64,000 nucleotides of DNA from Trypanosoma brucei (taxonomy: Eukaryota). This document shows positions 1 to 62,200 of this stretch, in pieces (the stretch's first letter is position 1; every line of letters begins with the position of its first letter). The stretch is taken from the NCBI GenBank assembly GCA_000002445.1, contig CP000070.1:1792001-1856000 (forward strand). Reading direction: 5' to 3'. The translations under genes and the position numbers were made by a program. The notes beneath the pieces are model-generated. The model did no database searches, was not told the origin of the DNA, and saw only the letters and a program-made list of their open reading frames with translations.

Positions 1-26
1 GAAACTAGCCGGTATATGGGGGAGAC

Positions 27-638
27 TCAAGGTCTCGGTGATGTTGCATTACCCCCTCCCACGGCGTCTGCCTCGTCGTCCTCATCTAATATTTCCCAAA
101 AGTGTTCTGAAGTACATTTCTCCTTCTCAGCCTTCTCCGCTTCTCTCTCAGCATTCCTACTCAACGTCTCGGCTCTGACGGTATACTCATGTGCATCTAG
201 AAAATTATCTTTCAACCCAAAAACGGCCTTCGTGGTGAGCACCGGTCTCTCGGGTGACTCCCCGCAGAACTTCACAACCTCAGTGAATAACTGACGGACA
301 CGCCTTTCACTATTCGACAGCTGCGGCTCAATGTACTTAATCGCCCTGTAGTACTGGTCCGCCAGCTTCTTTCGCTGTGCATTGACAGCGTCAACCAACT
401 CCTTCTGTTCATTCGACTTCACAATTGCGTCACATCTCTTCTTCACAACTTCAGCCCGCTCGGTGGCACGATCAAACCTGTGCCAAACATTAACTAAACG
501 CATGTTTAAGCGACCATACGAAACTTTCAACCCCAGGCAATACCGCAATCGGCGCGTCGTTGATAGAGCGACGCTCCCCCCCACATTGCACAGAATGGCA
601 ATGAAAAGGCACACGATGATTTTCTTCGCTAGATTCAT
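27..638 (-). CDS. Array member 1 (divergent): secreted protein with signal peptide MNLAKKIIVCLFIAILCNVGG and an ~180-aa Cys domain; HCGFW motif degenerated to FCGESPERPV; short acidic tail
   Basis: ORF 27..644 begins at GTG; the first ATG is at 638 (rc of cat 636-638). N-terminal hydrophobic signal peptide. Shares YC...C...YY(R/N)AIxYIE spacing with the paralogs at 1330, 2724, 4133, 8006 and 11709. TGA stop at 27-29. Confidence 0.75.
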   Translation of the reverse strand: MNLAKKIIVCLFIAILCNVGGSVALSTTRRLRYCLGLKVSYGRLNMRLVNVWHRFDRATERAEVVKKRCDAIVKSNEQKELVDAVNAQRKKLADQYYRAIKYIEPQLSNSERRVRQLFTEVVKFCGESPERPVLTTKAVFGLKDNFLDAHEYTVRAETLSRNAEREAEKAEKEKCTSEHFWEILDEDDEADAVGGGNATSPRP

Positions 639-644
639 TGTCAC

Positions 645-1047
645 ACACTTGTCTCTCCTATGTACCGCATGAAATTAAAAAAGAAAAACAGAATAATATC
701 TTTTGGGCAAGACAATACGAAAAGGGCAATGCAACATATGCAGGAGAGAGACAGTTTCCTCCTTCCCTCAAACAATAGACACACGCCACACTACAGTCTC
801 ACAATCACATTGGTTATTTAAAAGCACTCACAACACTGTAAAAGGGACAAAAAGTCACTTCAAGCAAAGCATTACTTAGCATGCGGTTACGTAGATATTC
901 ATATTGTTGCATGCCCTCCGTCACACGTTGGTACGTTGGAACATGCTAACATCAACCATCCGTCCGTCCACACACACACGCACATACCGCTATTTAAAGC
1001 GGTTTCTATACATCATTCCACTACCCAGATCCCTTATGGAAAAGTTA
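645..1047 (-). repeat. Conserved intergenic cassette copy 1: 3'UTR of the upstream paralog plus polypyrimidine tract/splice-acceptor region and short 5'UTR of the downstream paralog
   Basis: Near-identical to 2047-2420, 3438-3840, 7425-7700 and 11066-11460 (e.g. ...gaaaaacagaataatatcttttgggcaagacaatacg...ccgtcacacgttggtacgttggaacatgctaacatcaaccatccgtccgtccacacacacacgcaca...ccgctatttaaagcggtttctatacatcatt). Confidence 0.85.
661..700 (-). promoter_or_regulatory. Putative polypyrimidine tract and AG trans-splice acceptor region serving gene 27..638; predicted 5'UTR is very short
   Basis: Minus-strand reading gives ...ttctgtttttcttttttaatttcatgcggtacatAGgAGAGacaAGtgtgtgacaATG. The same arrangement sits upstream of the genes starting at 3431 and 11059. 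Kinetoplastid SL trans-splicing is inferred, not shown by the sequence. Confidence 0.45.
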
Positions 1048-1329
1048 GTCCTTCCACTTGATACAACGCACGACGTCTCCTTACGACGCAGTATGTTATG
1101 TACAGAAAATAAAATCAAGTAAAGGTGTAGAAAGAGTGACGAAAAAGTGGCATGGTAAGTTGTTATGTGTCCCGCATCAGTATCATTCGAACAGTCGCTG
1201 CCAATACCGCCAAGGATGTGACCAACATGGCACTCAAAATTCCACCAAGCACTCGCACGAACCAGTGCCACTGCCGTCCCATACGCTCGCGGTGAATTCC
1301 TATCCAGCCTACCCATTACTCGGAACCGA

Positions 1330-2013
1330 TCACTGCGAGGTTACATTTTCACCACCAACAGGCGGGGCAGTGCCTTCGGGCGTTTCGGATGCTGCGCTTC
1401 CATCGTTGGGCTCCCCACCTTCTTTCTCTGGCTTTTTGTCTCCCTCTCCGCCCAATGCGTTCTTCGATTCAGCGGAACTGCATTGTGTCGTTCTGGCTTT
1501 CACTTCGCTTGTCTCCGCTTCCCTTGACAGCACCTCCATCTTTGATACTAAAGATTTGGCCTTCCACAATTTGACTCTCGCTTCACGCTTGAGCTCAGAA
1601 GACACTGGCATGAAAGACGACCAGAAGCCGCAATGCTTTCTTATACCATTAAGCAACTCGCGCACGTCTTTCTTGTACTCAATTACCTGAGTCTCAATAT
1701 ATCTAATGGCATTGTATTGTTCCACTACTAATTTCACTTTATCCGAGTTAGCGTTTTCCGTCCCTTCCCTAGTTTCACTTAGTCTAGCAGCCTTCTCACA
1801 GGATGTCCTCACAACCTTTGCACGATCCCGGCTACCATGAAGGGCCTGAAGCAAGGCTGTGCAGCGGCCACTTATTGAATTAATTGATCTTCTCAGTGAA
1901 TCACAATATCTCTCTCGCACTACCCTCTTGCTGAATGCAATACCACCCTGCACACTACATAGCATAGAAACGACAAGGCACACGGTGGCACCCCGCGCAA
2001 GCCTCATGGCCAT
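1330..2013 (-). CDS. Array member 2: secreted Cys-domain protein with signal peptide MAMRLARGATVCLVVSMLCSVQGG and short Gly/Glu-rich tail
   Basis: ATG start confirmed at 2011-2013 (rc). Contains NSDKVKLVVEQYNAIRYIE and HCGFWSSFMPVSS motifs shared with paralogs. Confidence 0.8.
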   Translation of the reverse strand: MAMRLARGATVCLVVSMLCSVQGGIAFSKRVVRERYCDSLRRSINSISGRCTALLQALHGSRDRAKVVRTSCEKAARLSETREGTENANSDKVKLVVEQYNAIRYIETQVIEYKKDVRELLNGIRKHCGFWSSFMPVSSELKREARVKLWKAKSLVSKMEVLSREAETSEVKARTTQCSSAESKNALGGEGDKKPEKEGGEPNDGSAASETPEGTAPPVGGENVTSQ

Positions 2014-2046
2014 CCTTGAAGACTACTTCCACAAACGAAAGTTATA

Positions 2047-2555
2047 AAAAAAAAAAGAAAAACAGAATAATATCTTTTGGGCAAGACAATACGAAAAGGG
2101 CAATGCAACATATGCAGGAGAGAGACAGTTCCCTCCTTCCCTCAAACAATACACACACGCCACACTACAGTCTCAAAATCACATTGGTTATTTAAAAGCA
2201 CTCACAACACTGTAAAAGGGACAAAAAGTCACTTCAAGCAAAGCATTACTTAGCATGCGATTACGTAGATATTCATATTGTTGCATGCCCTCCGCCACAC
2301 GTTGGTACGTTGGAACATGCTAACATCAACCATCCGTCCGTCCACACACACACGCACACACCGCTATTTAAAGCAGTTTCTATACATCATTTCATTACCC
2401 AAATCCCTTATGGAAAAATAGAACCCGGAGCACGTCGCCGATCTGTTTATATCTTCAATAAAAAGAACAAAAAGTAAAGCATATTAATGTTATAAAGCAA
2501 TAAAGGAAAGCCACAGCACGCAGCTGAATAACTTGTTATCGTCTAAGAGACCATA
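2047..2555 (-). repeat. Conserved intergenic cassette copy 2, with a ~140-bp extension also found at 11461-11600
   Basis: Direct sequence identity to the other cassette copies. Extension ...ccggagcacgtcgccgatctgtt(t/c)atatcttcaataaaaagaacaaaaagtaaagcatattaatgttataaagcaataaaggaaa... is shared with 11461-11600. Confidence 0.85.
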
Positions 2556-2723
2556 ATTCTGCCACCACTGCCCATCGGGCTGAAAGAACAGATGAGTGTA
2601 GCAATACTCTCGGCGGCCACATTAAGAAACAGCCTGTCGCATCCCTTTAGTATTCAGCGTGCCTTACATTCTCCTCAGCAGCGTAGTTAGCATCCACCCC
2701 CATTCCAGTTATCACTTAATGGC

Positions 2724-3431
2724 TCAATTAGCAGATTCTGTGCCCGCATGTTCCTCACGGGTCTCGGACGAGGTAGTGGACGTGGCCCTATCGAGCTCAC
2801 GAGTTCCGACAGTTGGAGTGGTGTCTTGTAGTGAGTCACCGCCACTTTGCGGCTCCGCTTCACTTCTTGTGACTTCCTCCTGCGTATCTGTAGCTGGCGC
2901 GGAGCACCACTCCCCTGAAGCGTGAGAAGCATAAGATTTCGCATTTTCACTGAGTGATTCCACCTTCGATATCAATTCTGAAGCCTCCTCAAGGTGGCGT
3001 TTTGTGATATCACGCAGAAACGAGGATACGGGAGTGAAAGACAACCAGAAGCCGCAGTGCTTTCCCAAACCGATTAATAAATCGTGAATTTTTTTTTCGT
3101 AATCGGATATCTGCCGTTCATTATACATAATAGCGTTGTAGTACTCATTCACTAATTTCATTTTATCCGAGTTAGCAGCATCACTCACTTCCTTCTCTTC
3201 ACTTAACTTAACAAACCTTTCGCAATTTTCTTTAACATTCTCCACCTTATGAAGTGCATCCTCAAAAACATTCCAGGTGTCAGTAAACCGCTTCCCCAAT
3301 TCCTCAACTGTTGCCTTCAACTTTGTACAGTATCCCCCTTTTTTTTCAACCAGAGAAAAACCACGCACGCCCCCCACATTGCACAGAATGGCAATGAAAA
3401 GGCACACGATGATTTTCTTCGCTAGATTCAT
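2724..3431 (-). CDS. Array member 3: secreted Cys-domain protein with signal peptide MNLAKKIIVCLFIAILCNVGGVRGF and Ser/Thr/Glu-rich tail
   Basis: ORF starts at GTG 3437; first ATG at 3431. Motifs NSDKMKLVNEYYNAIMYNE and HCGFWLSFTPVSS. 5' end nucleotide-identical to the members starting at 638 and 11059. Confidence 0.8.
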   Translation of the reverse strand: MNLAKKIIVCLFIAILCNVGGVRGFSLVEKKGGYCTKLKATVEELGKRFTDTWNVFEDALHKVENVKENCERFVKLSEEKEVSDAANSDKMKLVNEYYNAIMYNERQISDYEKKIHDLLIGLGKHCGFWLSFTPVSSFLRDITKRHLEEASELISKVESLSENAKSYASHASGEWCSAPATDTQEEVTRSEAEPQSGGDSLQDTTPTVGTRELDRATSTTSSETREEHAGTESAN

Positions 3432-3437
3432 TGTCAC

Positions 3438-3840
3438 ACACTTGTCTCTCCTATGTACCGCATGAAATTAAAAAAGAAAAACAGAATAATATCTTTTGGG
3501 CAAGACAATACGGAAAGCACATGTACATCCATATGCAGGAGAAAGACAGTTTCCTCCTTCCCTCAAACAATAGACACACGCCACACTACAGTCTCAAAAT
3601 CACGTTGGGTATTTAAAAGCACTCACAACACTGTAAAAGGGACAAAAAGTCACTTCAAGCAAAGCATTACTTAGCATGCGATTACGTAGATATTCATATT
3701 GTTGCATGCCCTCCGTCACACGTTGGTACGTTGGAACATGCTAACATCAACCATCCGTCCGTCCACACACACACGCACACACCGCTATTTAAAGCGGTTT
3801 CTATACATCATTTCATCACCCAATTCCCTTATGGAAAAAT
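3438..3840 (-). repeat. Conserved intergenic cassette copy 3
   Basis: Identity to the other cassette copies. Confidence 0.85.
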
Positions 3841-4132
3841 AGAACGACCACCATGGCACTTTTCCCACAAGCTCATCAGGCCCAAAGGAAGAAAATGAAC
3901 AATCTACATATTGCGTTTAGTATAGTGTAAGTGAAAAATAAAGCAATAAAAACAACACTAGTGAACACCGACACGACCCTTCACCACATAAACAGGACCA
4001 TTACTATTAACACTGTTCTAACAAACTAACCGACCAATAATTGAGCGATAATCACACTATCTACGATAAAACAAAAAAGGTATTCTACCCAACAGCTGCT
4101 GGATCACTATAAACACATCATGCCCAAATCCA
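3841..4132 (-). repeat. 3' flank (putative 3'UTR) of the long-repeat gene, duplicated at 7700-8005
   Basis: ccaccatggcacttttcccacaagctcatcaggcccaaaggaagaaaat(g/a)aacaatcta...ggtattctacccaacagctgctggatca(c/t)tataaacacatcatgcccaaatccattattgcacag is shared by both copies. Confidence 0.8.
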
Positions 4133-7100
4133 TTATTGCACAGACACACCCTCGGCACCTACGGATCCAGCAGTTTCTTTAGGTCCAGCACTTCCCTCAG
4201 ATCCAGCACTTTCTTTGGGTCCAGCAGTTTCTTTGGGTCCAGCAGCTTCTTTAGGTCCAGCATTTCCCTCAGATCCAGCACTTCCCTCAGATCCAGCACT
4301 TTCTTTAGGTCCAGCACTTTCTTTAGGTCCAGCACTTCCCTCAGATCCAGCACCTTCTTTAGGTTCAGCAGTTTCTTTAGGTCCAACACTTTCCTCAGAT
4401 CCAGCACCTTCTTTAGGTCCAGCAGTTTCTTTGGGTCCAGCAGCTTCTTTAGGCCCAGCACTTCCCTCAGATCCAGCACTTTCTTCAGGTCCAGCAGTTT
4501 CTTTAGGTCCAGCACTTCCCTCAGATCCAGCACTTTCTTTAGGTCCAGCAGTTTCTTTAGGTCCAGCACTTTCCTCAGATCCAGCACTTTCTTTGGGTCC
4601 AGCAGTTTCTTTGGGTCCAGCACTTTCTTTAGGTCCAGCAGCTTCTTTAGGTCCAGCACTTCCCTCAGATCCAGCACCTTCTTTAGGTCCAGCAGCTTCT
4701 TTAGGTCCAGCACTTCCCTCAGATCCAGCACTTTCTTTGGGTCCAGCAGTTTCTTTGGGTCCAGCAGCTTCTTTAGGTCCAGCACTTCCCTCAGATCCAG
4801 CACTTTCTTTAGGTCCAGCAGTTTCTTTAGGTCCAGCACTTTCCTCAGATCCAGCACTTTCTTTAGGTCCAGCACTTTCTTTAGGTCCAGCACTTCCCTC
4901 AGATCCAGCACCTTCTTTAGGTTCAGCAGTTTCTTTAGGTCCAACACTTTCCTCAGATCCAGCACCTTCTTTAGGTCCAGCAGTTTCTTTGGGTCCAGCA
5001 GCTTCTTTAGGCCCAGCACTTCCCTCAGATCCAGCACTTTCTTTAGGTCCAGCAGTTTCTTTAGGTCCAGCACTTCCCTCAGATCCAGCACCTTCTTTAG
5101 GTTCAGCAGTTTCTTTAGGTCCAGCACTTCCCTCAGATCCAGCACTTTCTTTGGGTCCAGCACTTTCTTTGGGTCCAGCACTTTCTTTAGGTCCAGCACT
5201 TCCCTCAGATCCAGCACCTTCTTTAGGTTCAGCAGTTTCTTTAGGTCCAGCACTTTCTTTAGGTCCAGCACTTTCCTCAGATCCAGCACTTTCTTTGGGT
5301 CCAGCAGTTTCTTTGGGTCCAGGACTTTCTTTAGGTCCAGCAGTTTTTTTAGGTCCAGCACTTTCTTTAGGTCCAGCACTTCCCTCAGATCCAGCACTTT
5401 CTTTAGGTCCAGCACTTTCTTTAGGTCCAGCAGTTTTTTTAGGTCCAGCACTTTCTTTAGGTCCAGCACTTCCCTCAGATCCAGCACTTTCTTTAGGTCC
5501 AGCAGTTTCTTTAGGTCCAGCACTTTCCTCAGATCCGGCACTTTCTTTAGGTCCAGCAGCTTCTTTAGGTCCAGCACTTCCCTCAGATCCAGCACTTTCT
5601 TTAGGTCCAGCACTTTCTTTAGGTCCAGCAGTTTCTTTGGGTCCAGCAGCTTCTTTAGGTCCAGCACTTCCCTCAGATCCAGCACTTTCTTTAGGTCCAG
5701 CAGTTTCTTTAGGTCCAGCACTTTCCTCAGATCCAGCACTTTCTTTGGGTCCAGCAGTTTCTTTGGGTCCAGCACTTTCTTTAGGTCCAGCAGCTTCTTT
5801 AGGTCCAGCACTTCCCTCAGATCCAGCACCTTCTTTAGGTCCAGCAGCTTCTTTAGGTCCAGCACTTCCCTCAGATCCAGCACTTTCTTTGGGTCCAGCA
5901 GTTTCTTTGGGTCCAGCAGCTTCTTTAGGTCCAGCACTTCCCTCAGATCCAGCACTTTCTTTAGGTCCAGCAGTTTCTTTAGGTCCAGCACTTTCCTCAG
6001 ATCCAGCACTTTCTTTGGGTCCAGCAGTTTCTTTGGGTCCAGCAGTTTCTTTGGGTCCAGCAGTTTCTTTGGGTCCAGCAGCTTCTTTAGGTCCAGCACT
6101 TCCCTCAGATCCAGCACCTTCTTTAGGTCCAGCAGCTTCTTTAGGTCCAGCACTTCCCTCAGATCCAGCACTTTCTTTGGGTCCAGCATTTCCCTCAGAT
6201 CCAGCACTTCCCTCAGATCCAGCATTTCCCTCAGATCCAGCACTTCCCTCAGGTCCAGCACCTTCTTTAGGTCCAGCACTTTCTTTAGGTCCAGCACTTT
6301 CTTTGGGTCCAGCACTTCCCTCAGATCCAGCACTTCCCTCAGATCCAGCACTTTCTTTAGGTCCAGTACTTTCTTTGGGTCCGGCACTTTCTTTAGGTCC
6401 AGCACTTTCTTTAGGTCCAGTACTTTCTTTGGATCCAGCACTTTCTTTAGGTCCAGTACTTTCTTTGGGTCCAGCACTTCCCTCAGATCCAGCACTTCCC
6501 TCAGGTCCAGCACCTTCTTTAGGTCCAGCACTTTCTTTAGGTCCAGCACTTTCTTTAGGTCCAGCACTTCCCTCAGATCCAGCACTTCCCTCAGATCCAG
6601 CACTTTCTTTAGGTCCAGTACTTTCTTTGGGTCCGGCACTTTCTTTAGGTCCAGCACTTTCTTTAGGTCCAGCACTTTCCTCAGATCCAGCACCTTCTTT
6701 AGGGTCGACAAGACCCCCAGGCGTGACGGGGGTACCTTGCGTTTTGGGCGACTCTAAGGAAGTTGGACTGCTATTTTTTGTTTTGTTTGTCCTATTGACC
6801 TCTTTTTCGGTGGACATTTCGTCGGTTTCTGTGCCAGGATCAAGGAAAGTGCATATTCCCTCTTTTAGATTTTCCCCGTAATACCTGGCATCAAAACTAA
6901 GAGCCTCAATTCTTGCCGTAAGAAATTTGACCTGTAACAAATTGGTAGTTGTATACCGGTGTACCTCATCAGATAATAGCGTGAAAGACACCCAAAAGCC
7001 ACATTCTTTTTTAATGTTGCCAACCAATTCGTGTACCTTCTTTTCGTGGTCATCAACCTTGCGTTTTATAAGAAGGATGGCATCATTGTACCCATCCAGT

Positions 7101-7363
7101 ATCTTTATTCGCTCCCATGCAAAAGTACTCCTACCACTGGTGTCAAGTATCCTACAGTTAACAACCTCCTCCCTAACATTTACAAGTGAACGCTTGACGT
7201 CACGTTTTGCCTGCTCCAAACGATTATTAATATCAAATAAAAGACGCTTCATTCTTGCACAATATCTCGCTCTGCTCTCCCATCTATTAAAAAAACTGCT
7301 GGCATCAACAACATATGATGTATGCACCACAAAAAATAGCACAATACACCACAGAACATGCAT
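4133..7363 (-). CDS. Array member 4: secreted Cys-domain protein with signal peptide MHVLWCIVLFFVVHTSYVVDA, fused to ~850 aa of AGPKE[S/T/A]/AGSEGS 6-aa tandem repeats; C-terminus ...GSVGAEGVSVQ
   Basis: ORF 4133..7417 starts at GTG; first ATG at 7363. The N-terminal domain has the family C/ECGFWVSF pattern. The repeat frame is continuous with the N-terminal domain. No C-terminal hydrophobic segment. Confidence 0.8.
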   Translation of the reverse strand: MHVLWCIVLFFVVHTSYVVDASSFFNRWESRARYCARMKRLLFDINNRLEQAKRDVKRSLVNVREEVVNCRILDTSGRSTFAWERIKILDGYNDAILLIKRKVDDHEKKVHELVGNIKKECGFWVSFTLLSDEVHRYTTTNLLQVKFLTARIEALSFDARYYGENLKEGICTFLDPGTETDEMSTEKEVNRTNKTKNSSPTSLESPKTQGTPVTPGGLVDPKEGAGSEESAGPKESAGPKESAGPKESTGPKESAGSEGSAGSEGSAGPKESAGPKESAGPKEGAGPEGSAGSEGSAGPKESTGPKESAGSKESTGPKESAGPKESAGPKESTGPKESAGSEGSAGSEGSAGPKESAGPKESAGPKEGAGPEGSAGSEGNAGSEGSAGSEGNAGPKESAGSEGSAGPKEAAGPKEGAGSEGSAGPKEAAGPKETAGPKETAGPKETAGPKESAGSEESAGPKETAGPKESAGSEGSAGPKEAAGPKETAGPKESAGSEGSAGPKEAAGPKEGAGSEGSAGPKEAAGPKESAGPKETAGPKESAGSEESAGPKETAGPKESAGSEGSAGPKEAAGPKETAGPKESAGPKESAGSEGSAGPKEAAGPKESAGSEESAGPKETAGPKESAGSEGSAGPKESAGPKKTAGPKESAGPKESAGSEGSAGPKESAGPKKTAGPKESPGPKETAGPKESAGSEESAGPKESAGPKETAEPKEGAGSEGSAGPKESAGPKESAGPKESAGSEGSAGPKETAEPKEGAGSEGSAGPKETAGPKESAGSEGSAGPKEAAGPKETAGPKEGAGSEESVGPKETAEPKEGAGSEGSAGPKESAGPKESAGSEESAGPKETAGPKESAGSEGSAGPKEAAGPKETAGPKESAGSEGSAGPKEAAGPKEGAGSEGSAGPKEAAGPKESAGPKETAGPKESAGSEESAGPKETAGPKESAGSEGSAGPKETAGPEESAGSEGSAGPKEAAGPKETAGPKEGAGSEESVGPKETAEPKEGAGSEGSAGPKESAGPKESAGSEGSAGSEGNAGPKEAAGPKETAGPKESAGSEGSAGPKETAGSVGAEGVSVQ
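4160..6715 (-). repeat. Coding tandem repeat array, 18-nt period, ~140 units, two unit types (gctggacc(t/c)aaagaa(a/g)(g/c)t = AGPKE[S/T/A]; gctggatctgagggaagt = AGSEGS)
   Basis: Visible as ggtccagca(c/g)tttctttaggtccagca / cttccctcagatccagca iterations on the + strand. Open in all six frames, which produces the spurious ORFs 4136..6757, 4159..6711 and 4215..6881. Confidence 0.95.
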
Positions 7364-7424
7364 TTTCTTCAACGACAACAACACAAAAACAATAAAAAAA
7401 AACAATAGCACATGCACATGCAGG

Positions 7425-7700
7425 AGAGAGACAGTTCCCTCCTTCCCTCAAACAATAGACACACGCCACACTACAGTCTCAAAATCACGTTCAGCATTTA
7501 ACAGCATACACGACACTGTAAAAGGGACAAAAAGTCACTTCAAGCAAAGCATTACTTAGCATGCGGTTACGTAGATATTCATATTGTTGCATGCCCTCCG
7601 TCACACGTTGGTACGTTGGAACATGCTAACTCCCTTATCTCACGGCCGCTCCTCCCCACCGCTATTTAAAGCGGTCCTAACGTAATCTTATAACTAACCG
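7425..7700 (-). repeat. Conserved intergenic cassette copy 4 (partial/diverged; lacks the 5'-proximal ~60 bp)
   Basis: Shares ...gcaggagagagacagttccctccttccctcaaacaatagacacacgccacactacagtctca... and ...ccgtcacacgttggtacgttggaacatgctaac... with the other copies; the central part is diverged. Confidence 0.75.
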
Positions 7701-8005
7701 GATCCCTTATGGAAAAATAGAACGACCACCATGGCACTTTTCCCACAAGCTCATCAGGCCCAAAGGAAGAAAATAAACAATCTAAATGATATCAATAATA
7801 TAATGTAAAAATAAAGCAATAAAAACAACACTAGTGAACACCGACACGACCCTTCACCACATAAACAGGACCATTACTATTAACAGTGTTCTAACAAACT
7901 AACCGACCAATAATTGAGCGATAATCACACTATCTACGATAAAACAAAAAAGGTATTCTACCCAACAGCTGCTGGATCATTATAAACACATCATGCCCAA
8001 ATCCA
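7700..8005 (-). repeat. Second copy of the long-repeat-gene 3' flank (see 3841-4132)
   Basis: Near-identical to 3841-4132. Confidence 0.8.
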
Positions 8006-11000
8006 TTATTGCACAGACACACCCTCGGCACCTACGGATCCAGCACTTTCTTTAGGTCCAGCAGTTTCTTTGGGTCCAGCACTTTCTTTAGGTCCAGCAC
8101 TTCCCTCAGATCCAGCACTTTCTTTGGGTCCAGCAGTTTCTTTGGGTCCAGCACTTCCCTCAGATCCAGCACTTTCTTTAGGTCCAGCAGTTTCTTTAGG
8201 TCCAGCACTTTCCTCAGATCCGGCACTTTCTTTAGGTCCAGCACTTTCTTTAGGTCCAGCAGTTTCTTTGGGTCCAGCAGTTTCTTTGGGTCCAGCACTT
8301 CCCTCAGATCCAGCAGTTTCTTTGGGTCCAGCACTTCCCTCAGATCCAGCACCTTCTTTAGGTCCAGCATTTCCCTCAGATCCAGCACTTCCCTCAGATC
8401 CAGCACTTTCTTTAGGTCCAGCACTTCCCTCAGATCCGGCACTTTCTTTAGGTCCAGCACTTTCTTTGGGTCCAGCACTTTCTTTAGGTCCAGCATTTCC
8501 CTCAGATCCAGCACTTCCCTCAGATCCAGCACTTTCTTTAGGTCCAGCACTTTCTTTAGGTCCAGCACTTCCCTCAGATCCAGCACCTTCTTTAGGTCCA
8601 GCACTTTCTTTAGGTCCAGCAGCTTCTTTAGGTCCAGCACTTTCTTTAGGTCCAGCAGTTTCTTTAGGTCCAGCACTTTCCTCAGATCCGGCACTTTCTT
8701 TAGGTCCAGCACTTTCTTTGGGTCCGGCACTTTCTTTAGGTCCAGCAGCTTCTTTAGGTCCAGCACTTTCCTCAGATCCGGCACTTTCTTTAGGTCCAGC
8801 ACTTTCCTCAGATCCAGCAGCTTCTTTAGGTCCAGCACTTTCCTCAGATCCAGCAGTTTCTTTAGGTTCAGCACTTTCTTTAGGTCCAGCACTTTCCTCA
8901 GATCCGGCACTTTCTTTAGGTCCAGCACTTTCTTTGGGTCCAGCACTTTCCTCAGATCCAGCAGCTTCTTTAGGTCCAGCACTTTCCTCAGATCCAGCAG
9001 TTTCTTTAGGTCCAGCACTTTCCTCAGATCCAGCAGTTTCTTTAGGTTCAGCACTTTCTTTAGGTCCAGCACTTTCTTTAGGTCCAGCACCTTCTTTAGG
9101 TCCAGCACTTTCTTTAGGTCCAGCACTTTCTTTAGGTCCAGCACCTTCTTTAGGTCCAGCACTTTCCTCAGATCCAGCAGTTTCTTTAGGTTCAGCACTT
9201 TCTTTAGGTCCAGCACTTTCTTTAGGTCCAGCAGCTTCTTTAGGTCCAGCACTTTCTTTAGGTCCAGCACCTTCTTTAGGTCCAGTACTTTCTTTAGGTC
9301 CAGCACTTTCTTTAGGTCCAGCACCTTCTTTAGGTCCAGCACTTTCTTTAGGTCCAGCAGCTTCTTTAGGTCCAGCAGCTTCTTTAGGTCCAGCACTTCC
9401 CTCAGATCCAGCACCTTCTTTAGGTCCAGCATTTCCCTCAGATCCAGCATTTCCCCCAGATCCAGCACTTTCTTTGGGTCCAGCATTTCCCTCAGATCCA
9501 GCATTTCCCCCAGATCCAGCACTTTCTTTGGGTCCAGCACTTTCCTCAGATCCAGCAGCTTCTTTAGGTCCAGCACTTTCTTTAGGTCCAGCACTTTCTT
9601 TAGGTCCAGCAGCTTCTTTAGGTCCAGCAGCTTCTTTAGGTCCAGCACTTCCCTCAGATCCAGCACCTTCTTTAGGTCCAGCATTTCCCTCAGATCCAGC
9701 ATTTCCCCCAGATCCAGCACTTTCTTTGGGTCCAGCATTTCCCTCAGATCCAGCATTTCCCCCAGATCCAGCACTTTCTTTGGGTCCAGCACTTTCTTTA
9801 GGTCCAGCACTTTCTTTAGGTCCAGCACTTTCTTTAGGTCCAGCAGCTTCTTTAGGTCCAGCATTTCCCTCAGATCCAGCAGCTTCTTTAGGTCCAGCAC
9901 TTTCCTCAGATCCAGCACCTTCTTTAGGTTCAGCACTTTCTTTAGGTCCAGCACTTTCTTTAGGTCCAGCAGCTTCTTTAGGTCCAGCATTTCCCTCAGA
10001 TCCAGCATTTCCCCCAGATCCAGCACTTTCCTCAGATCCGGCACTTTCTTTAGGTCCAGCACTTCCCTCAGATCCAGCAGCTTCTTTAGGTCCAGCACTT
10101 TCTTTGGGTCCAGCAGCTTCTTTAGGTCCAGCACTTCCCTCAGATCCAGCAGCTTCTTTAGGTCCAGCATTTCCCTCAGATCCAGCATTTCCCCCAGATC
10201 CAGCACTTTCTTTGGGTCCAGCATTTCCCTCAGATCCAGCAGTTTCTTTAGGTCCGGCAGTTTCTTTGGGTCCAGCACTTTCTTTAGGTCCAGCAGTTTC
10301 TTTAGGTCCAGCACTTTCCTCAGATCCAGCACTTTCTTTAGGTCCAGCAGCTTCTTTAGGTCCAGCACTTTCCTCAGATCCAGCACTTTCTTTGGGTCCA
10401 GCAGCTTCCTTGGTGGTGACCGTTTCTTTTGGCGACTGGGATGTCGCACCACTGCTTTTGGGTTCCTCTTGTTTTTTCTTTGCCTTTTCTTCCTCCTCCC
10501 CCGCCAATACATTCTCTGTCCCCACCAAGACGCATCTGTTTCTTGCGGCGGTATCGCTGTGATTTTTTGCACCAAGACTGAGTTTGTCTATCATTATCGT
10601 TAGGGATCTTGCTTCTAACAGTTTTTCTTTAACAGTTCTTTTGAATGACGATGTGAGTGGCATGAAAGACAACCAGAAGCCGCAGCCGTTCCATATTTCA
10701 CCAGTCAAAGTGTTGATCTTCCTTTCGCAATCACCGATGAGCAGTTCAATTTGCCTAATGGCACTGTAGCTCTCGTCTACTAACTTAAGTTTTTCTGAGT
10801 TGGTGGCGCCAGAAACGTCCTTGGCTTTCTTATGCTTCAAAATACCTTCGCATTCTGCTTTTACGGCTAGCGTGTTATTGAACGCACGGTCGAATACGTT
10901 CCATGACTCTGAAAATCGGTTGTTAACTTTGTTAATAACACTTTTGACCTTTTTACAATGAGCTGCTCTGCTTTCCCGCCTCTCGAAACCACGCACGCCC

Positions 11001-11059
11001 CCCACATTGCACAGAATGGCAATGAAAAGGCACACGATGATTTTCTTCGCTAGATTCAT
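8006..11059 (-). CDS. Array member 5: secreted Cys-domain protein with signal peptide MNLAKKIIVCLFIAILCNVGGVRGF, fused to ~790 aa of AGPKE[S/T/A]/AGSEGS/AGSGGN repeats; same C-terminus as member 4
   Basis: ORF starts at GTG 11065; first ATG at 11059. N-terminal domain carries NSEKLKLVDESYSAIRQIE and CGFWLSFMPLTSS. The last 28 nt of the CDS and the 3' flank are identical to member 4. Confidence 0.8.
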   Translation of the reverse strand: MNLAKKIIVCLFIAILCNVGGVRGFERRESRAAHCKKVKSVINKVNNRFSESWNVFDRAFNNTLAVKAECEGILKHKKAKDVSGATNSEKLKLVDESYSAIRQIELLIGDCERKINTLTGEIWNGCGFWLSFMPLTSSFKRTVKEKLLEARSLTIMIDKLSLGAKNHSDTAARNRCVLVGTENVLAGEEEEKAKKKQEEPKSSGATSQSPKETVTTKEAAGPKESAGSEESAGPKEAAGPKESAGSEESAGPKETAGPKESAGPKETAGPKETAGSEGNAGPKESAGSGGNAGSEGNAGPKEAAGSEGSAGPKEAAGPKESAGPKEAAGSEGSAGPKESAGSEESAGSGGNAGSEGNAGPKEAAGPKESAGPKESAEPKEGAGSEESAGPKEAAGSEGNAGPKEAAGPKESAGPKESAGPKESAGPKESAGSGGNAGSEGNAGPKESAGSGGNAGSEGNAGPKEGAGSEGSAGPKEAAGPKEAAGPKESAGPKESAGPKEAAGSEESAGPKESAGSGGNAGSEGNAGPKESAGSGGNAGSEGNAGPKEGAGSEGSAGPKEAAGPKEAAGPKESAGPKEGAGPKESAGPKESTGPKEGAGPKESAGPKEAAGPKESAGPKESAEPKETAGSEESAGPKEGAGPKESAGPKESAGPKEGAGPKESAGPKESAEPKETAGSEESAGPKETAGSEESAGPKEAAGSEESAGPKESAGPKESAGSEESAGPKESAEPKETAGSEESAGPKEAAGSEESAGPKESAGSEESAGPKEAAGPKESAGPKESAGPKESAGSEESAGPKETAGPKESAGPKEAAGPKESAGPKEGAGSEGSAGPKESAGPKESAGSEGSAGSEGNAGPKESAGPKESAGPKESAGSEGSAGPKESAGSEGSAGSEGNAGPKEGAGSEGSAGPKETAGSEGSAGPKETAGPKETAGPKESAGPKESAGSEESAGPKETAGPKESAGSEGSAGPKETAGPKESAGSEGSAGPKESAGPKETAGPKESAGSVGAEGVSVQ
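8033..10410 (-). repeat. Coding 18-nt tandem repeat array (second copy; different unit order and length from 4160-6715; includes GGN/EES variants)
   Basis: Same ggtccagca.../cttccctcagatccagca units. Spurious alternative-frame ORFs 8009..10603, 8032..10575 and 8070..10562. Confidence 0.95.
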
Positions 11060-11065
11060 TGTCAC

Positions 11066-11600
11066 ACACTTGTCTCTCCTATGTACCGCATGAAATTAAA
11101 AAAGAAAAACAGAATAATATCTTTTGGGCAAGACAATAGGGAAAGCACATGTACATCCATATGCAGGAGAAAGACAGTTTCCTCCTTCCCTCAAACAATA
11201 GACACACGCCACACTACAGTCTCACAATCACGTTGGGTATTTAAAAGCACTCACAACACTGTAAAAGGGACAAAAAGTCACTTCAAGCAAAGCATTACTT
11301 AGCATGCGATTACGTAGATATTCATATTGTTGCATGCCCTCCGTCACACGTTGGTACGTTGGAACATGCTAACATCAACCATCCGTCCGTCCACACACAC
11401 ACGCACACACCGCTATTTAAAGCAGTTTCTATACATCATTCCACTACCCAAATGTCCCATGCTTATCCGGAAGCCGGAGCACGTCGCCGATCTGTTCATA
11501 TCTTCAATAAAAAGAACAAAAAGTAAAGCATATTAATGTTATAAAGCAATAAAGGAAAACCACAGCACGCAGCTGAATAACTTGTTATCATCGAAGCAGC
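11066..11600 (-). repeat. Conserved intergenic cassette copy 5 plus the extension shared with 2420-2555
   Basis: Identity to 3438-3840 (core) and 2420-2555 (extension). Confidence 0.85.
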
Positions 11601-11708
11601 ATCTCAACCTACGTAGCCTTGAGCAAGACGAAGCAACATCTTCCATCGTCGTGTTCCCAATCAAATAAAATCCGTTGACTCCTTCTTACATTCAACTTGT
11701 CTCATGCT

Positions 11709-12515
11709 CTAATCCACCTCTGCCTGGGCCTCCTTCCCTACCGCAGGTTCAGCAACAACAGCAGGTTCCTCGTCGGCGGTTTTTTCCCCAAGACCTTCTT
11801 GGCTGCTATCGGTGTCACCTTTAGCGGTGTCAGTCGACCTCTTTTCTTCTCTCTGCTCATCCATACTTGTGGGTGATTCAGGAGATTCGGGCACGGGGCC
11901 ATCGGATGTTTCCTCGTTCTGTTTGCCGGAAGTGTCTTCACCAGCACCTGCCTCCTTCTCTCTGCGTTTATCCTCCACCGTGGAGCACTCATCATTCGCC
12001 GCATCAGCGGCATAGCTCGCCGCATCTCCACTAAGAGTTTCAATTTTCGACACCTTGCCTGTAGCTTCAGCCGTCGTCTCCTCAATGCTCCGTTTGAATG
12101 AAATGGTTACTGGCATGAAGGACAACCAAAACCCGCATCGGTCCTTTAGATACACCGTTAGTTTGTGTAAATCGCGCTCGTAGTTCCTAATCTCTGTTCC
12201 GACATACATGATCGCGTTGTAGTACTCATCTACAACTCTCTTCTTTCCGCTGTCTGCAACATCTGTTATCTCATCGTCGCTGACTTTCTTCACGTCCTCG
12301 TCGCACTTTCCCTTGACAACACTGGTTCGCTTGAGAGCAACTTCAAACGTGTGCCATGCGTTTGCATAGCGGGTATTAATGGCCCGAACTGATTTGGCCA
12401 CTGTAGTACAGTATTCTGAGCGGCTTATCCTTCCCCAATGAGAAGAGGACTTGCCTCCAATACTGCATAGCCCGGCCACGAGAATATATAGTGTTACGCC
12501 CCTTGCGAAAACCAT
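11709..12515 (-). CDS. Array member 6 (most upstream): secreted Cys-domain protein with signal peptide MVFARGVTLYILVAGLCSIGG and acidic Glu/Asp/Ser-rich tail
   Basis: ORF starts at TTG 12524; first ATG at 12515. Motifs VVDEYYNAIMYVGTE and RCGFWLSFMPVTIS. Has a different 5' flank from the other members (no cassette upstream). Confidence 0.75.
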   Translation of the reverse strand: MVFARGVTLYILVAGLCSIGGKSSSHWGRISRSEYCTTVAKSVRAINTRYANAWHTFEVALKRTSVVKGKCDEDVKKVSDDEITDVADSGKKRVVDEYYNAIMYVGTEIRNYERDLHKLTVYLKDRCGFWLSFMPVTISFKRSIEETTAEATGKVSKIETLSGDAASYAADAANDECSTVEDKRREKEAGAGEDTSGKQNEETSDGPVPESPESPTSMDEQREEKRSTDTAKGDTDSSQEGLGEKTADEEPAVVAEPAVGKEAQAEVD

Positions 12516-13098
12516 TATTTTCAATAGCGATCCTCTTTTTTCCGCCCCTCCTTTCCAGACCTAAAAAGACGACGGTGGGATGAAGAAGGGAAGCGAGACA
12601 AATGGAGGGACGCGTCCAAGCCACTAAAAGGCAATCCAGAAATGGAAACTTTAACAACACAAGTAATCAAAATAGGGGGGGGGCGTAGAAATCACCGGGT
12701 GAATAATTGATAAGGAAAAAAGAAAAACGGAAAATATACGGGTGGCCACCAGATACAATGCAGTTTGGGCACTTCATGCGCCACGCACCCTGACTCCCCT
12801 GCCACTGCGCACTAGATTTTCATCCCCGTGCCTCTGCACGGTGGATCACCACAGATCTGCAGCTGTCTAGATAGGGATACTCCTCAAACGGCGCCGTTTA
12901 GTGCATTAACAGACAAAAAAGGTAAAAAAGAGAAAAGAAAAGAAAAGTGCAGCCCCAGACAGAAATGACATAATCAAAACAAAAATATTTTCGTCGCTAC
13001 ACTCCACCGGAAGTGCCGCATGAAGAAGAAAACGGGGTGACAAGCACCGATGCAGGGGAGTCACACCTGTCACCCTACACTCAAGACTTATCCAACAT

Positions 13099-49600: not shown

Positions 49601-50412
49601 AGTCGAGCAATGAGTCCATCGGCGAAATAAACAAAAATACTTATAATTGTAATACGCCTCCTCACATATGCCTAAAGAAAACGGGAATAAAAAGAGAAGA
49701 AGAGGAAGAAGCATATAAAAGATATAAAAGATGTAAAAGATATATATAAATACTACCAACTATATTCAGTGAATGCAAAACGCACGTATGATAAAGTTAA
49801 AAACTCGACTTTCTTTTTTTTTTTTCGCCCCCATCCCGTGCACTCGCAGCCATCGATGATGTTATTGTTGTTGTTTCATTGGGTCTTTCTTTTATTTTTT
49901 TTTCCTCTCTCTCTTCTTCTTTTTACCCCACTTGTGCTTTCTTTTTTTTTTTTTATTTTCTTCATTTTATCAAAGGTGGAATGATGGAGTAACCAAATCT
50001 GCCAAACATGCAGAGCTAAGAAAACATATGCAATCACCAATAGGTTCATTATGCTACCACATATCACCTCAACTGCGAAGAAAACATACTGTCGACGATC
50101 CGTGAGCCTCTTTTCCTTTCCTTTCCTTTTTATTTTTATTTTTTCTACAACCCCCTTCTCTTCTTCTTTTAAGTATACATATATATATATATATATATAT
50201 TCGTGGAGTAAATCCAACAACTCACTCATTTCTGCACTTACTTTCGCTCCTCTTCCCCATGCACACACACACACACACACACGCTTCTCTGCTGTATCTA
50301 CTTGTATTTTAGCTACGCTGAATGCAAAAAAAAAAAAAGAAAAAAATGGAAAGGGAAAACATGCACAAATATATATATATATATATATATACCCGTTCAT
50401 GTACACCTTTGC

Positions 50413-61823: not shown

Positions 61824-62166
61824 CCAGCTTTCGAGAGGAAATATTTTCTCTTCTCTTTTTATTTTCCTTATTTTTTATTTTCTTTTCTTTTATCTGTTTC
61901 CTCCTCCTTCCTTTTGTTGTTTAGCACAACACACGACTTTGCTATTGGTGATTGTGAATCAAATGTATCGTTGCCGTTGTGAAGGCGGCGTCCGTACCTT
62001 TCAGGTGGTTGTTCGCCTGCTTTTATCAACTTTTCAACCCTTCCGTTTTGTTTTTTTGATGATGTTGTTGTTGCTTTTGCCTACAAATAAATAAATATCC
62101 TTTTTTTTTCTTTTCTTTCCTCTCTCTCTCACTCACTCACTCACACCCTCTCTTTTCTTTTTTTTC

Positions 62167-62200
<34 letters not shown>

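What the first reader, a model, noticed from the sequence alone, without database searches (positions are those of the whole stretch)
645..11600. Five copies of a ~380-bp conserved intergenic cassette (3'UTR/5'UTR module) punctuating the array
Each inter-CDS spacer contains the same element: ...gaaaaacagaataatatcttttgggcaagacaatacg...gcaggagagagacagtt(t/c)cctccttccctcaaacaatagacacacgccacactacagtctca(c/a)aatcac...ccgtcacacgttggtacgttggaacatgctaacatcaaccatccgtccgtccacacacacacgcaca...ccgctatttaaagcggtttctatacatcatt. There are two sub-variant extensions (2420-2555 = 11461-11600; 3841-4132 = 7700-8005). On the transcribed strand it supplies the polypyrimidine tract and acceptor AG of the downstream gene and most of the 3'UTR of the upstream gene. 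Strong conservation against divergent coding cores suggests shared post-transcriptional regulation (e.g. a stage-specific 3'UTR element). It could also serve as the homology that drives array recombination. It contains the near-palindrome ccgctatttaaagcgg.
Basis: partly seen in the sequence, partly recalled or inferred. Interest (0 to 1): 0.55.

Follow-up and report, generated by a model that had tools for sequence, protein, structure and literature searches.

The report
Shared spacer between trypanosome surface-protein genes
The repeated ~400-bp element is the spacer between tandem Trypanosoma brucei Fam10 (SGM1) surface-protein genes: it holds the end of one mRNA and the start signals of the next, and gene conversion keeps the copies alike, an ordinary pattern for trypanosome gene arrays.

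Summary
Five copies of a 314-408 nt element (86-98% identical) lie between six minus-strand genes, and nowhere else in the 64 kb. A sixth, truncated copy follows the last gene just outside the window, seen in two other subspecies.

The window is T. brucei TREU927 chromosome 7, 1,792,001-1,856,000. The genes are the Fam10/SGM1 array Tb927.7.6550-6600, whose mRNAs are enriched in metacyclic and bloodstream forms.

Published poly(A) mapping (Kolev 2010) puts the main poly(A) sites of Tb927.7.6560 and 6570 at window 806 and 2180. These are the same homologous position inside the cassette. The cassette therefore supplies about 45% of each upstream 3'UTR, not most of it. It also supplies a ~150-nt unexpressed spacer with a T-rich tract, a predicted splice acceptor and a 19-nt 5'UTR. 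For three genes it includes the first 62 nt of coding sequence.

Coding cores are saturated at synonymous sites, and identity collapses abruptly at the cassette edges. Variant sites are reshuffled among copies. Copies at the same position in different subspecies differ 4-7 times more than neighbouring unique sequence. That indicates gene conversion, not site-by-site purifying selection. A regulatory role for the shared 3'UTR end is plausible but untested. This is a new example of a known pattern.

The parts
645..1043 (-). Cassette copy between gene B (Tb927.7.6560) and gene A (Tb927.7.6550). The core shared by all copies is 735-1043.
806..806 (-). Experimentally mapped predominant poly(A) site of Tb927.7.6560 (chr7:1792806; 3'UTR 524 nt; dispersion 1.65)
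   Evidence: Kolev 2010 Table S13. Coordinate offset checked on three genes.
677..698 (-). Predicted polypyrimidine tract for gene A (22 nt, 77% T). First AG at 659-658, giving a predicted 19-nt 5'UTR at 639-657.
   Evidence: The mapped poly(A) site lies 148 nt upstream of the predicted splice site; Kolev median is 142 nt. Inferred, not mapped.
2014..2424 (-). Cassette copy between gene C (Tb927.7.6570, ESP17) and gene B. Core is 2109-2424. Positions 2014-2050 are B-specific 5'UTR and hold the predicted AG at 2027-2026.
2180..2180 (-). Experimentally mapped predominant poly(A) site of Tb927.7.6570 (chr7:1794180; 3'UTR 544 nt; dispersion 2.21). Same alignment column as 806.
2425..2547 (-). 'Beta' 3'UTR module of gene C, shared with gene F (11454-11596)
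   Evidence: one 93% alignment, 2051-2547 vs 11098-11596
3438..3845 (-). Cassette copy between gene D (Tb927.7.6580) and gene C. Core is 3525-3845. Predicted poly(A) site 3601, pyrimidine tract 3470-3491, AG 3452-3451.
3846..4132 (-). 'Alpha' 3'UTR module of gene D. Shared with gene E (7724-8005) and in part with the 3' flank of gene A (L001 13600-13818).
7410..7723 (-). Divergent cassette copy between gene E (Tb927.7.6590) and gene D. It is core only, with a replaced block near 7630-7660. Predicted poly(A) site is 7486. Sequence from 7409 downward is D-specific: the D-specific part of the pyrimidine tract runs 7371-7409 (the whole tract, 7371-7434, starts inside the core), with the AG at 7368-7367.
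11066..11453 (-). Cassette copy between gene F (Tb927.7.6600, SGM1.7) and gene E. Core is 11143-11453. Predicted poly(A) site 11229, pyrimidine tract 11098-11119, AG 11080-11079.
11454..11596 (-). 'Beta' 3'UTR module of gene F
577..638 (-). First 62 nt of gene A coding sequence (signal peptide). It is 100% identical to 3370-3431 (gene C) and 10998-11059 (gene E). Identity collapses at a G-run.
833..885 (-). 53-nt block invariant in all 14 copies compared (three subspecies), 27-79 nt upstream of the poly(A) site. Also at 2207-2259, 3628-3680, 7513-7565 and 11256-11308. Candidate functional element.
   Evidence: longest invariant run, P about 0.009 with the E-to-D copy excluded
735..805 (-). 71-nt segment just downstream of the poly(A) site, 94-99% identical in all six copies, including the divergent and terminal ones. 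It contains a second pyrimidine tract, CTGTCTCTCTCCTGCATATG.

Best explanation
The cassette is the inter-gene region of the T. brucei Fam10/SGM1 tandem array, read on the minus strand. Each copy holds four things in order. First come the last ~240 nt of the upstream gene's 3'UTR, ending at one precise poly(A) site. Next is a ~150-nt stretch predicted to be removed during processing, carrying two pyrimidine tracts. These tracts direct both trans-splicing of the next gene and, through the known coupling of the two reactions, polyadenylation of the previous gene. Then comes a splice-acceptor AG and a ~19-nt 5'UTR. In genes A, C and E the signal-peptide coding sequence follows. The copies stay 94-98% alike because they repeatedly overwrite one another by gene conversion or unequal exchange, with tract ends at the edges of the divergent ectodomain coding cores. 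As a result all six paralogs share the same mRNA-processing signals and the same 3'-terminal UTR sequence, which may contribute to their common stage-regulated expression. Shown: copy number and boundaries, the two poly(A) sites, and the exchange signatures. Inferred: the splice-acceptor positions, poly(A) sites of the other four genes, and any regulatory effect.
For: Identity of the locus. The gene C protein is 99% identical to ESP17, which is Tb927.7.6570 in Fam10. The offset window = chr7 minus 1,792,000 reproduces three published 3'UTR lengths exactly: 524, 544 and 406 nt. Processing. Both mapped poly(A) sites fall in the same alignment column of the cassette. The predicted T-rich tract starts 41-47 nt upstream of the first AG, and the poly(A) sites lie 148 and 154 nt upstream of the predicted splice sites. 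Genome-wide medians are 43 and 142 nt, with an interquartile range of 123-178 for the latter. Every one of the six genes has the core in its 3' flank, including the last gene, which has no family gene downstream. The first gene has none upstream. Concerted evolution. Coding cores are 39-53% identical with synonymous differences of 0.66-0.85, i.e. saturated, against 94-98% in the cassette. Identity among A, C and E is 100% from -60 to +62 and then collapses within a few bases. Flanking modules (alpha, beta, unique) are combined as a mosaic. Of 300 pairs of informative sites, 141 fail the four-gamete test across 14 copies (PHI P = 0.02). Within the reference genome alone, 29 of 45 pairs fail. 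Cassettes at the same array position differ by 2.9% and 3.6% between subspecies, against 0.7% and 0.5% for adjacent coding plus unique UTR sequence (Fisher P = 3e-6 and 2e-10). Jackson 2007 (PMC1855330) described this pattern for other T. brucei arrays, including BARP, and attributed it to gene conversion.
Against: Splice-acceptor sites were not available; the relevant Kolev tables were truncated in the stored copy and no other source was found. Poly(A) sites are known for only two of the six genes, and from procyclic forms, where these mRNAs are scarce. Reads in near-identical copies can be mis-assigned, although the two sites are distinguishable by a nearby base difference. The T. b. gambiense and T. 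equiperdum assemblies have gaps in the array, and collapsed repeats could mimic some exchange; the reference-only test still shows incompatibilities. A 53-nt block is invariant in all 14 copies, more than random placement of variants predicts. That hints at some selective constraint on top of homogenisation.
Confidence: 0.8

Rival explanations
1. The cassette, or its 3'UTR part, is mainly a stage-specific cis-regulatory element. It would be bound by an RNA-binding protein, confer metacyclic and bloodstream-form expression on every Fam10 mRNA, and be conserved by purifying selection.
For: All Fam10 genes are co-expressed at high levels in metacyclic cells (Vigneron 2020). Tb927.7.6570 and 6600 are 'up' in long slender bloodstream forms versus procyclics (Nilsson 2010 Table S2). 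About 240 nt of the core are in the mature 3'UTR of each gene. The core follows even the last gene of the array. A 53-nt block 27-79 nt upstream of the poly(A) site is invariant in 14 copies. The one gene reported as an expression exception, sgm1.6, may be gene E, whose 3' cassette is the divergent copy; that gene-number mapping is not verified.
Against: The post-poly(A) 71 nt, predicted to be absent from mature mRNA, is equally or more conserved. Positional orthologues of the core diverge faster than neighbouring sequence. Folding is no more stable than shuffled sequence, z = -0.77 and +0.84. There is no Rfam match. The VSG 16-mer, the RBP10 UAUUUUUU motif, the PUF9 motif and AU-rich elements are absent (the motif list is from my own knowledge). 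No reporter data were found in the literature searched.
Confidence: 0.25
2. The cassette is a fragment of a dispersed repeat, such as a RIME/ingi or SIDER-type retroposon, that happens to sit in this array.
For: An ingi-type ORF with an endonuclease domain lies about 3 kb downstream of the array. Retroposon-derived UTR elements are known in trypanosomatids (own knowledge).
Against: There are no copies in the other 52 kb of the window, nor in about 20 kb of extra flank examined in two other subspecies, which includes the ingi-type element. Every copy sits in the same position relative to a Fam10 stop codon. No poly(A) tail or target-site duplication is evident.
Confidence: 0.03
3. The cassette encodes a small non-coding RNA, such as a snoRNA, or a small peptide repeated in each spacer.
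For: Trypanosome snoRNA clusters are tandemly repeated (own knowledge). Short ORFs exist in the cassette, and a 108-aa ORF in one spacer is annotated as a gene in T. b. gambiense.
Against: No Rfam family matches even at E <= 1, and no tRNA is found. Folding energy is unexceptional. Kolev's poly(A) table lists no novel transcript between Tb927.7.6560 and 6570. The ORFs are not preserved between copies, and a protein search with the longest one found nothing.
Confidence: 0.03

Closest known systems
Intergenic and UTR sequences of other T. brucei tandem arrays evolving in concert, especially BARP (Jackson 2007, BMC Evol Biol 7:54, PMC1855330)
   Same: Non-coding parts are far more alike than the coding sequences: for BARP, 0.335 substitutions per site in coding sequence against 0.073 and 0.038 in the UTRs. 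Coding and UTR phylogenies disagree. Gene-conversion tracts often span start or stop codons or lie in UTRs. Terminal UTRs of the array are shortened versions of internal spacers.
   Different: The Fam10 array was not among the 47 arrays analysed there. The contrast here is more extreme: synonymous sites are saturated while the cassette differs by 2-6%. The spacers are mosaics of three kinds of 3'UTR module.
MISP (Fam50) array on T. brucei chromosome 7 (Casas-Sanchez 2023, PMC10089363)
   Same: [quoted passage not shown]
   Different: MISP coding sequences are themselves highly conserved and are interleaved with unrelated genes. In Fam10 only the flanks and the signal peptide are homogenised.
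Coupled trans-splicing and polyadenylation regions of trypanosomatid polycistrons (Kolev 2010, PMC2936537)
   Same: There is a pyrimidine tract followed by an AG. The poly(A) site of the upstream gene lies about 142 nt upstream of the splice site. No other consensus signal is needed.
   Different: Nothing mechanistically different is evident. The poly(A) sites here are unusually tight, with dispersion of 1.7-2.2 nt.
Defined stage-specific 3'UTR elements: procyclin 26-mer and 16-mer, VSG 16-mer, Leishmania amastin 3'UTR (own knowledge)
   Same: A sequence shared by the 3'UTRs of a co-regulated surface-protein family.
   Different: Those are short, experimentally defined elements. Here no function has been tested, the VSG 16-mer is absent, and the conserved tract extends beyond the mature mRNA.

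Membership tests
Concertedly evolving intergenic sequence of a T. brucei tandem gene array (sensu Jackson 2007) | The same non-coding unit recurs between tandem paralogs | tested here: met
   Five copies in the window and a sixth after the last gene
Concertedly evolving intergenic sequence of a T. brucei tandem gene array (sensu Jackson 2007) | Non-coding parts are more alike than the coding sequences | tested here: met
   94-98% against 39-53% nucleotide identity; synonymous sites saturated
Concertedly evolving intergenic sequence of a T. brucei tandem gene array (sensu Jackson 2007) | Signals of exchange between copies: incompatible sites, mosaic structure, and paralogs closer than positional orthologues | tested here: met
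   141 of 300 site pairs incompatible, PHI P = 0.02. 29 of 45 incompatible within the reference alone. Orthologous cores diverge 4-7 times more than flanks. The D-to-C copy is closer to C-to-B copies than to its own orthologues.
Concertedly evolving intergenic sequence of a T. brucei tandem gene array (sensu Jackson 2007) | Terminal flanks of the array are shortened versions of the internal spacers | tested here: met
   The copy after gene A stops about 20 nt after CTGCATATG. There is no copy upstream of gene F.
Trypanosomatid coupled polyadenylation / trans-splicing region | The poly(A) site of the upstream gene lies inside the element | tested here: met
   Published sites at window 806 and 2180. 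Only two of six genes, in procyclic RNA.
Trypanosomatid coupled polyadenylation / trans-splicing region | A pyrimidine tract followed by an AG, at typical distances from the poly(A) site and the ATG | tested here: met
   A 22-29 nt tract, 77-79% T. The tract starts 41-47 nt before the AG. The poly(A) site is 148-154 nt before the AG.
Trypanosomatid coupled polyadenylation / trans-splicing region | Spliced leader is actually added at the predicted AG | not testable with these tools
   Kolev Tables S4 and S12 are truncated in the stored copy, and the Siegel 2010 supplement is not held
Stage-specific 3'UTR regulatory element | Lies within the mature 3'UTR | tested here: met
   About 240 nt of the core are upstream of the mapped poly(A) sites
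Stage-specific 3'UTR regulatory element | Conserved beyond the neutral expectation at orthologous positions | tested here: not met
   Cores diverge faster than adjacent coding and unique UTR sequence between subspecies. The 53-nt invariant block is the one exception.
Stage-specific 3'UTR regulatory element | Sufficient or necessary for stage-specific expression in reporter or deletion assays | not testable with these tools
   No such experiment was found in the papers searched
Dispersed retroposon-derived repeat (RIME/ingi/SIDER) | Copies scattered outside the gene family | tested here: not met
   None in the remaining 52 kb of the window or in the extra flanks of L001-L005. A genome-wide search was not possible.
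Known structured RNA family (Rfam) | Match to a covariance model, or a stable conserved fold | tested here: not met
   No Rfam match; z-scores of -0.77 and +0.84

The most novel reading that the evidence does not exclude
The 3'-terminal ~150 nt of every Fam10 mRNA, centred on the 53-nt block invariant in all 14 copies, is a real cis-element that sets metacyclic and bloodstream-form mRNA stability or translation. Gene conversion would then be how the family keeps six otherwise unrelated-looking ectodomain genes under one control. A second layer is possible. Choosing the upstream AG (window 701-700, 3494-3493, 11122-11121) over the proximal AG would add a 9-codon upstream ORF (MRYIGETSV) ending 2 nt before the start codon, giving a splice-site-dependent translational switch.
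Probability: 0.2. Interest if true: 0.55.

Novelty: new member of a known kind. Interest (0 to 1): 0.3.

Why it matters
[quoted passage not shown] There are three practical points.

- **Paralog quantification.** The last ~240 nt of all six mRNAs are nearly identical. Expression methods that read 3' ends, including droplet single-cell RNA-seq, therefore cannot reliably tell the paralogs apart. Published per-paralog differences should be read with that in mind. This is an inference from how those methods work.
- **Reporter design.** The cassette defines a compact candidate region, and a 53-nt invariant block within it, for reporter tests of metacyclic-specific expression.
- **Evolution.** The array is a clean, extreme example of gene conversion confined to gene flanks while the antigen-coding cores diverge to saturation. 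That is useful for studying how conversion tracts are bounded.

None of this changes current understanding of trypanosome gene expression.

Tried and rejected
- **Rfam and tRNA scans** of the array and the whole window: nothing.
- **RNA folding** of the 3'UTR part of the core and of a full 3'UTR: not more stable than shuffles. The hairpin idea for ccgctatttaaagcgg was dropped as unsupported.
- **VSG 3'UTR 16-mer** search: one chance-level hit elsewhere in the window and none in the array.
- **Known 3'UTR motifs** recalled from memory (RBP10, PUF9, AU-rich elements, CAUAGAA): none.
- **Pfam and PDB sequence searches** of the six proteins: no family.
- **Protein searches** to reach the seventh family member, Tb927.7.6490, and test whether its flank carries the cassette: only three array proteins came back.
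- **Protein search with the longest cassette ORF**, as a proxy for copies elsewhere: no hit, uninformative.
- **Metagenome scan** with a 33-nt invariant core string: no hit, uninformative for the T. brucei genome.
- **Splice-site tables:** truncated in the stored copy of Kolev 2010 and absent for Siegel 2010.
- **Jackson 2007 arrays Tb62 and Tb62a:** these are other chromosome 7 arrays (Tb927.7.6080 and Tb927.7.6110), not this one.
- **Inverted cassette copy in T. b. gambiense:** it lies in a segment bounded by two assembly gaps, so I treated it as a likely scaffolding artefact.
- **Literature search for Tb927.7.6500-6550:** nothing.
Full report
**1. What is there**

The region 1-12,600 carries six genes, all on the minus strand:
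- A: 27-638
- B: 1330-2007
- C: 2724-3431
- D: 4133-7363
- E: 8006-11059
- F: 11709-12515

I searched each inter-gene spacer against the whole window with blastn. This finds five copies of one element: 645-1043, 2051-2424, 3438-3845, 7410-7723 and 11066-11453. Four are 95-98% identical to each other. The 7410-7723 copy is about 86% identical, lacks the ATG-proximal ~90 nt, and has an internal replaced block.

No copy lies anywhere in 11,709-64,000.

**2. Where the window comes from**

The gene C protein is 99% identical to 'Enriched in surface-labeled proteome protein 17' of T. brucei equiperdum. ESP17 is Tb927.7.6570, a member of family Fam10 (Gadelha 2015).

Fam10 is the SGM1 family. Its genes are expressed at high levels in metacyclic cells, and SGM1.7 (Tb927.7.6600) has been tested as a vaccine antigen (Vigneron 2020). 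Tb927.7.6570 and 6600 are also listed as 'up' in long slender bloodstream forms relative to procyclics (Nilsson 2010 Table S2).

Kolev 2010 Table S13 gives predominant poly(A) sites on chromosome 7:

| Gene | chr7 coordinate | 3'UTR length |
|---|---|---|
| Tb927.7.6560 | 1,792,806 | 524 nt |
| Tb927.7.6570 | 1,794,180 | 544 nt |
| Tb927.7.6620 | 1,808,445 | 406 nt |

Subtracting 1,792,000 gives window positions 806, 2180 and 16445. Measured from the stop codons at 1330, 2724 and 16851, these reproduce all three lengths exactly.

The window is therefore TREU927 chromosome 7, 1,792,001-1,856,000. Gene B is 6560 and gene C is 6570. By order, A is 6550, D is 6580, E is 6590 and F is 6600. This fits TrypTag, which describes 6580 and 6590 together as flagellar-pocket lumen proteins. 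One older paper calls Tb927.7.6580 a kinase, which I take to be an identifier error.

Kolev's Table S14 places the array at the downstream end of a minus-strand transcription unit, Tb927.7.6820 to 6550.

**3. Anatomy on the transcribed strand**

I aligned the six 3' flanks. The sixth came from T. equiperdum (L001), because the window starts just after the stop codon of gene A. The spacers turn out to be mosaics.

- **Core.** A ~310-nt core, from 'CCATAAGGGA' to 'CTCCTGCATATG', follows every one of the six genes. That includes the last gene, which has no family gene downstream. There the homology stops about 20 nt past the core.
- **Upstream of the core.** The stop-codon-proximal 3'UTR comes in three kinds: alpha (genes D and E, and part of A), beta (C and F), and unique (B).
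- **Downstream of the core.** Genes A, C and E share an identical module made of a T-rich tract, a 5'UTR and the first 62 nt of coding sequence. Gene B shares only part of it. Gene D has its own.
- **First gene.** Gene F has no cassette upstream, in TREU927 or in T. b. gambiense.

**4. Processing sites**

The two mapped poly(A) sites fall in the same alignment column, on the minus strand at ...AAUGUG^AUU. They have very low dispersion, 1.65 and 2.21 nt.

The cassette therefore contributes 238 of 524 nt and 245 of 544 nt to these two 3'UTRs. That is about 45%, not 'most'.

I then applied Kolev's definition of a pyrimidine tract. Each of genes A, C and E has a 22-nt tract that is 77% T, and the first AG comes 19 nt after the tract ends. 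This predicts a 19-nt 5'UTR.

| Measure | Here | Genome-wide (Kolev) |
|---|---|---|
| Tract start to predicted splice site (A, C, E) | 41 nt | median 43 nt |
| Poly(A) site to predicted splice site | 148 nt (B to A); 154 nt (C to B) | median 142 nt, interquartile range 123-178 |

These splice sites are predictions, because splice-site tables were not available to me.

An upstream AG could also serve (window 701-700 and its equivalents). It would give a 61-nt 5'UTR containing a 9-codon upstream ORF.

By homology, the poly(A) sites of F, E and D would be at 11229, 7486 and 3601, giving 3'UTRs of 480, 520 and 532 nt.

**5. Why the copies are alike**

*Coding divergence.* The mature-domain coding sequences are only 39-53% identical at the nucleotide level. 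Proportions of synonymous differences are 0.66-0.85, which is saturated. Protein identity to gene A is 22-37%. The cassette is 94-98% identical.

*Sharp edges.* Among A, C and E identity is 100% from 60 nt upstream of the ATG to +62, and then collapses within a few bases at a G-run.

*Conservation outside the mRNA.* The 71 nt immediately after the poly(A) site should be absent from both mature mRNAs. They are 94-99% identical in all six copies, including the divergent E-to-D copy. Conservation therefore does not track the mature 3'UTR.

*Reshuffled variants.* I compared 14 core copies from TREU927, T. equiperdum and T. b. gambiense. Of 300 pairs of informative sites, 141 show all four haplotypes (PHI permutation P = 0.02). 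Within the reference genome alone, 29 of 45 pairs do. The same alternative bases and patches turn up in different array positions in different subspecies.

*Divergence at matching positions between subspecies.* This is the most telling result.

| Comparison | Cassette cores | Adjacent coding + unique 3'UTR | Fisher P |
|---|---|---|---|
| TREU927 vs T. equiperdum | 2.9% | 0.7% | 3e-6 |
| TREU927 vs T. b. gambiense | 3.6% | 0.5% | 2e-10 |

A sequence that is the most similar part between paralogs and the most changeable part between orthologous positions is being homogenised by exchange between copies. It is not being held constant site by site by selection.

Jackson (2007) reported this behaviour for many T. 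brucei arrays, with BARP as the leading example, and attributed it to gene conversion. The Fam10 array was not in that study.

**6. Is there function beyond processing?**

Possibly. The family is co-regulated, and in trypanosomes such regulation is post-transcriptional and usually acts through the 3'UTR (established knowledge). Each gene ends in the same ~240 nt.

Variation among the 14 copies is uneven. A 53-nt block lying 27-79 nt upstream of the poly(A) site is invariant in all of them. That run is longer than random placement of the variable sites predicts (P about 0.009 with the divergent copy excluded).

Against a structured or known element:
- Folding energies are ordinary.
- Rfam finds nothing.
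- The motifs I could recall are absent.
- The small hairpin at the 'near-palindrome' survives only as a U-G wobble in several copies.

I rate a dedicated regulatory element at about 0.2-0.25.

**7. Rivals set aside**

- *Dispersed retroposon.* There are no copies outside the array in roughly 70 kb of non-array sequence examined (about 50 kb of the window plus about 20 kb of extra flank), including next to an ingi-type element. A genome-wide search was not possible with these tools.
- *Small RNA or peptide gene.* Nothing supports it.

**8. Verdict**

Its evolutionary argument, that conservation implies regulation, is not. The suggestion that the cassette is the homology for array recombination has the best support. 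This is a further, unusually sharp example of a pattern already described for T. brucei tandem arrays, with one practical consequence. Methods that count mRNA 3' ends cannot separate the Fam10 paralogs well, because the terminal ~240 nt are shared.

Noticed in passing
window 4166-6703 and 8039-10411 (minus-strand genes D and E): About 2.4-2.5 kb in each gene consists of 18-nt (6-aa) repeats encoding GPKE[S/T/A]A and GSEGSA units. The repeats are open in all six reading frames, so long spurious ORFs appear on both strands. Both genes end in the same GSVGAEGVSVQ tail and the same alpha 3'UTR. TrypTag reports Tb927.7.6580 and 6590 as flagellar-pocket lumen proteins.
   Followed up: partly
window 27-638 (gene A, Tb927.7.6550): Gene A keeps the family signal peptide but has CGESPERP where the other five have the conserved CGFW(L/V/S)SF motif, and it lacks the long acidic C-terminal tail. 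It may be a degenerating member.
   Followed up: no
L001 13600-14149; L003 11025-11356 (just beyond window position 1): A sixth cassette copy (a partial alpha module plus the core) follows the last gene of the array in T. equiperdum and T. b. gambiense. It ends about 20 nt after CTGCATATG. An ingi-type ORF and a VSG-like gene on the opposite strand lie further downstream.
   Followed up: yes
window 990-1316, minus strand: A 108-aa ORF in the B-to-A spacer is called as a gene in the T. b. gambiense annotation (L003 9323-9649). It lies wholly inside the mapped 3'UTR of Tb927.7.6560, so it is probably not a real gene.
   Followed up: partly
L005 12219-20064 (T. b. gambiense DAL972 chromosome 7): The D/E repeat-gene block and its cassette appear in inverted orientation, but the segment is bounded by two 100-N gaps. 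This is most likely a misoriented contig in the scaffold.
   Followed up: partly
window 659-701, 3452-3494, 11080-11122 (minus strand): If the upstream AG were used for trans-splicing, the 61-nt 5'UTR would contain a 9-codon upstream ORF (MRYIGETSV) that stops 2 nt before the main ATG. Using the proximal AG excludes it.
   Followed up: no
window 48001-50000, 54001-56000, 58001-60000, 62001-64000: These stretches are markedly AT-rich (GC 0.30-0.36, against about 0.5 elsewhere). Not examined.
   Followed up: no
window 1-12600 in relation to chromosome 7: According to Kolev 2010 Table S14, the array is the last set of genes in a minus-strand Pol II transcription unit (Tb927.7.6820 to 6550). The seventh family member, Tb927.7.6490, sits at the end of the converging plus-strand unit. 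Position at the end of a transcription unit could itself influence expression.
   Followed up: no
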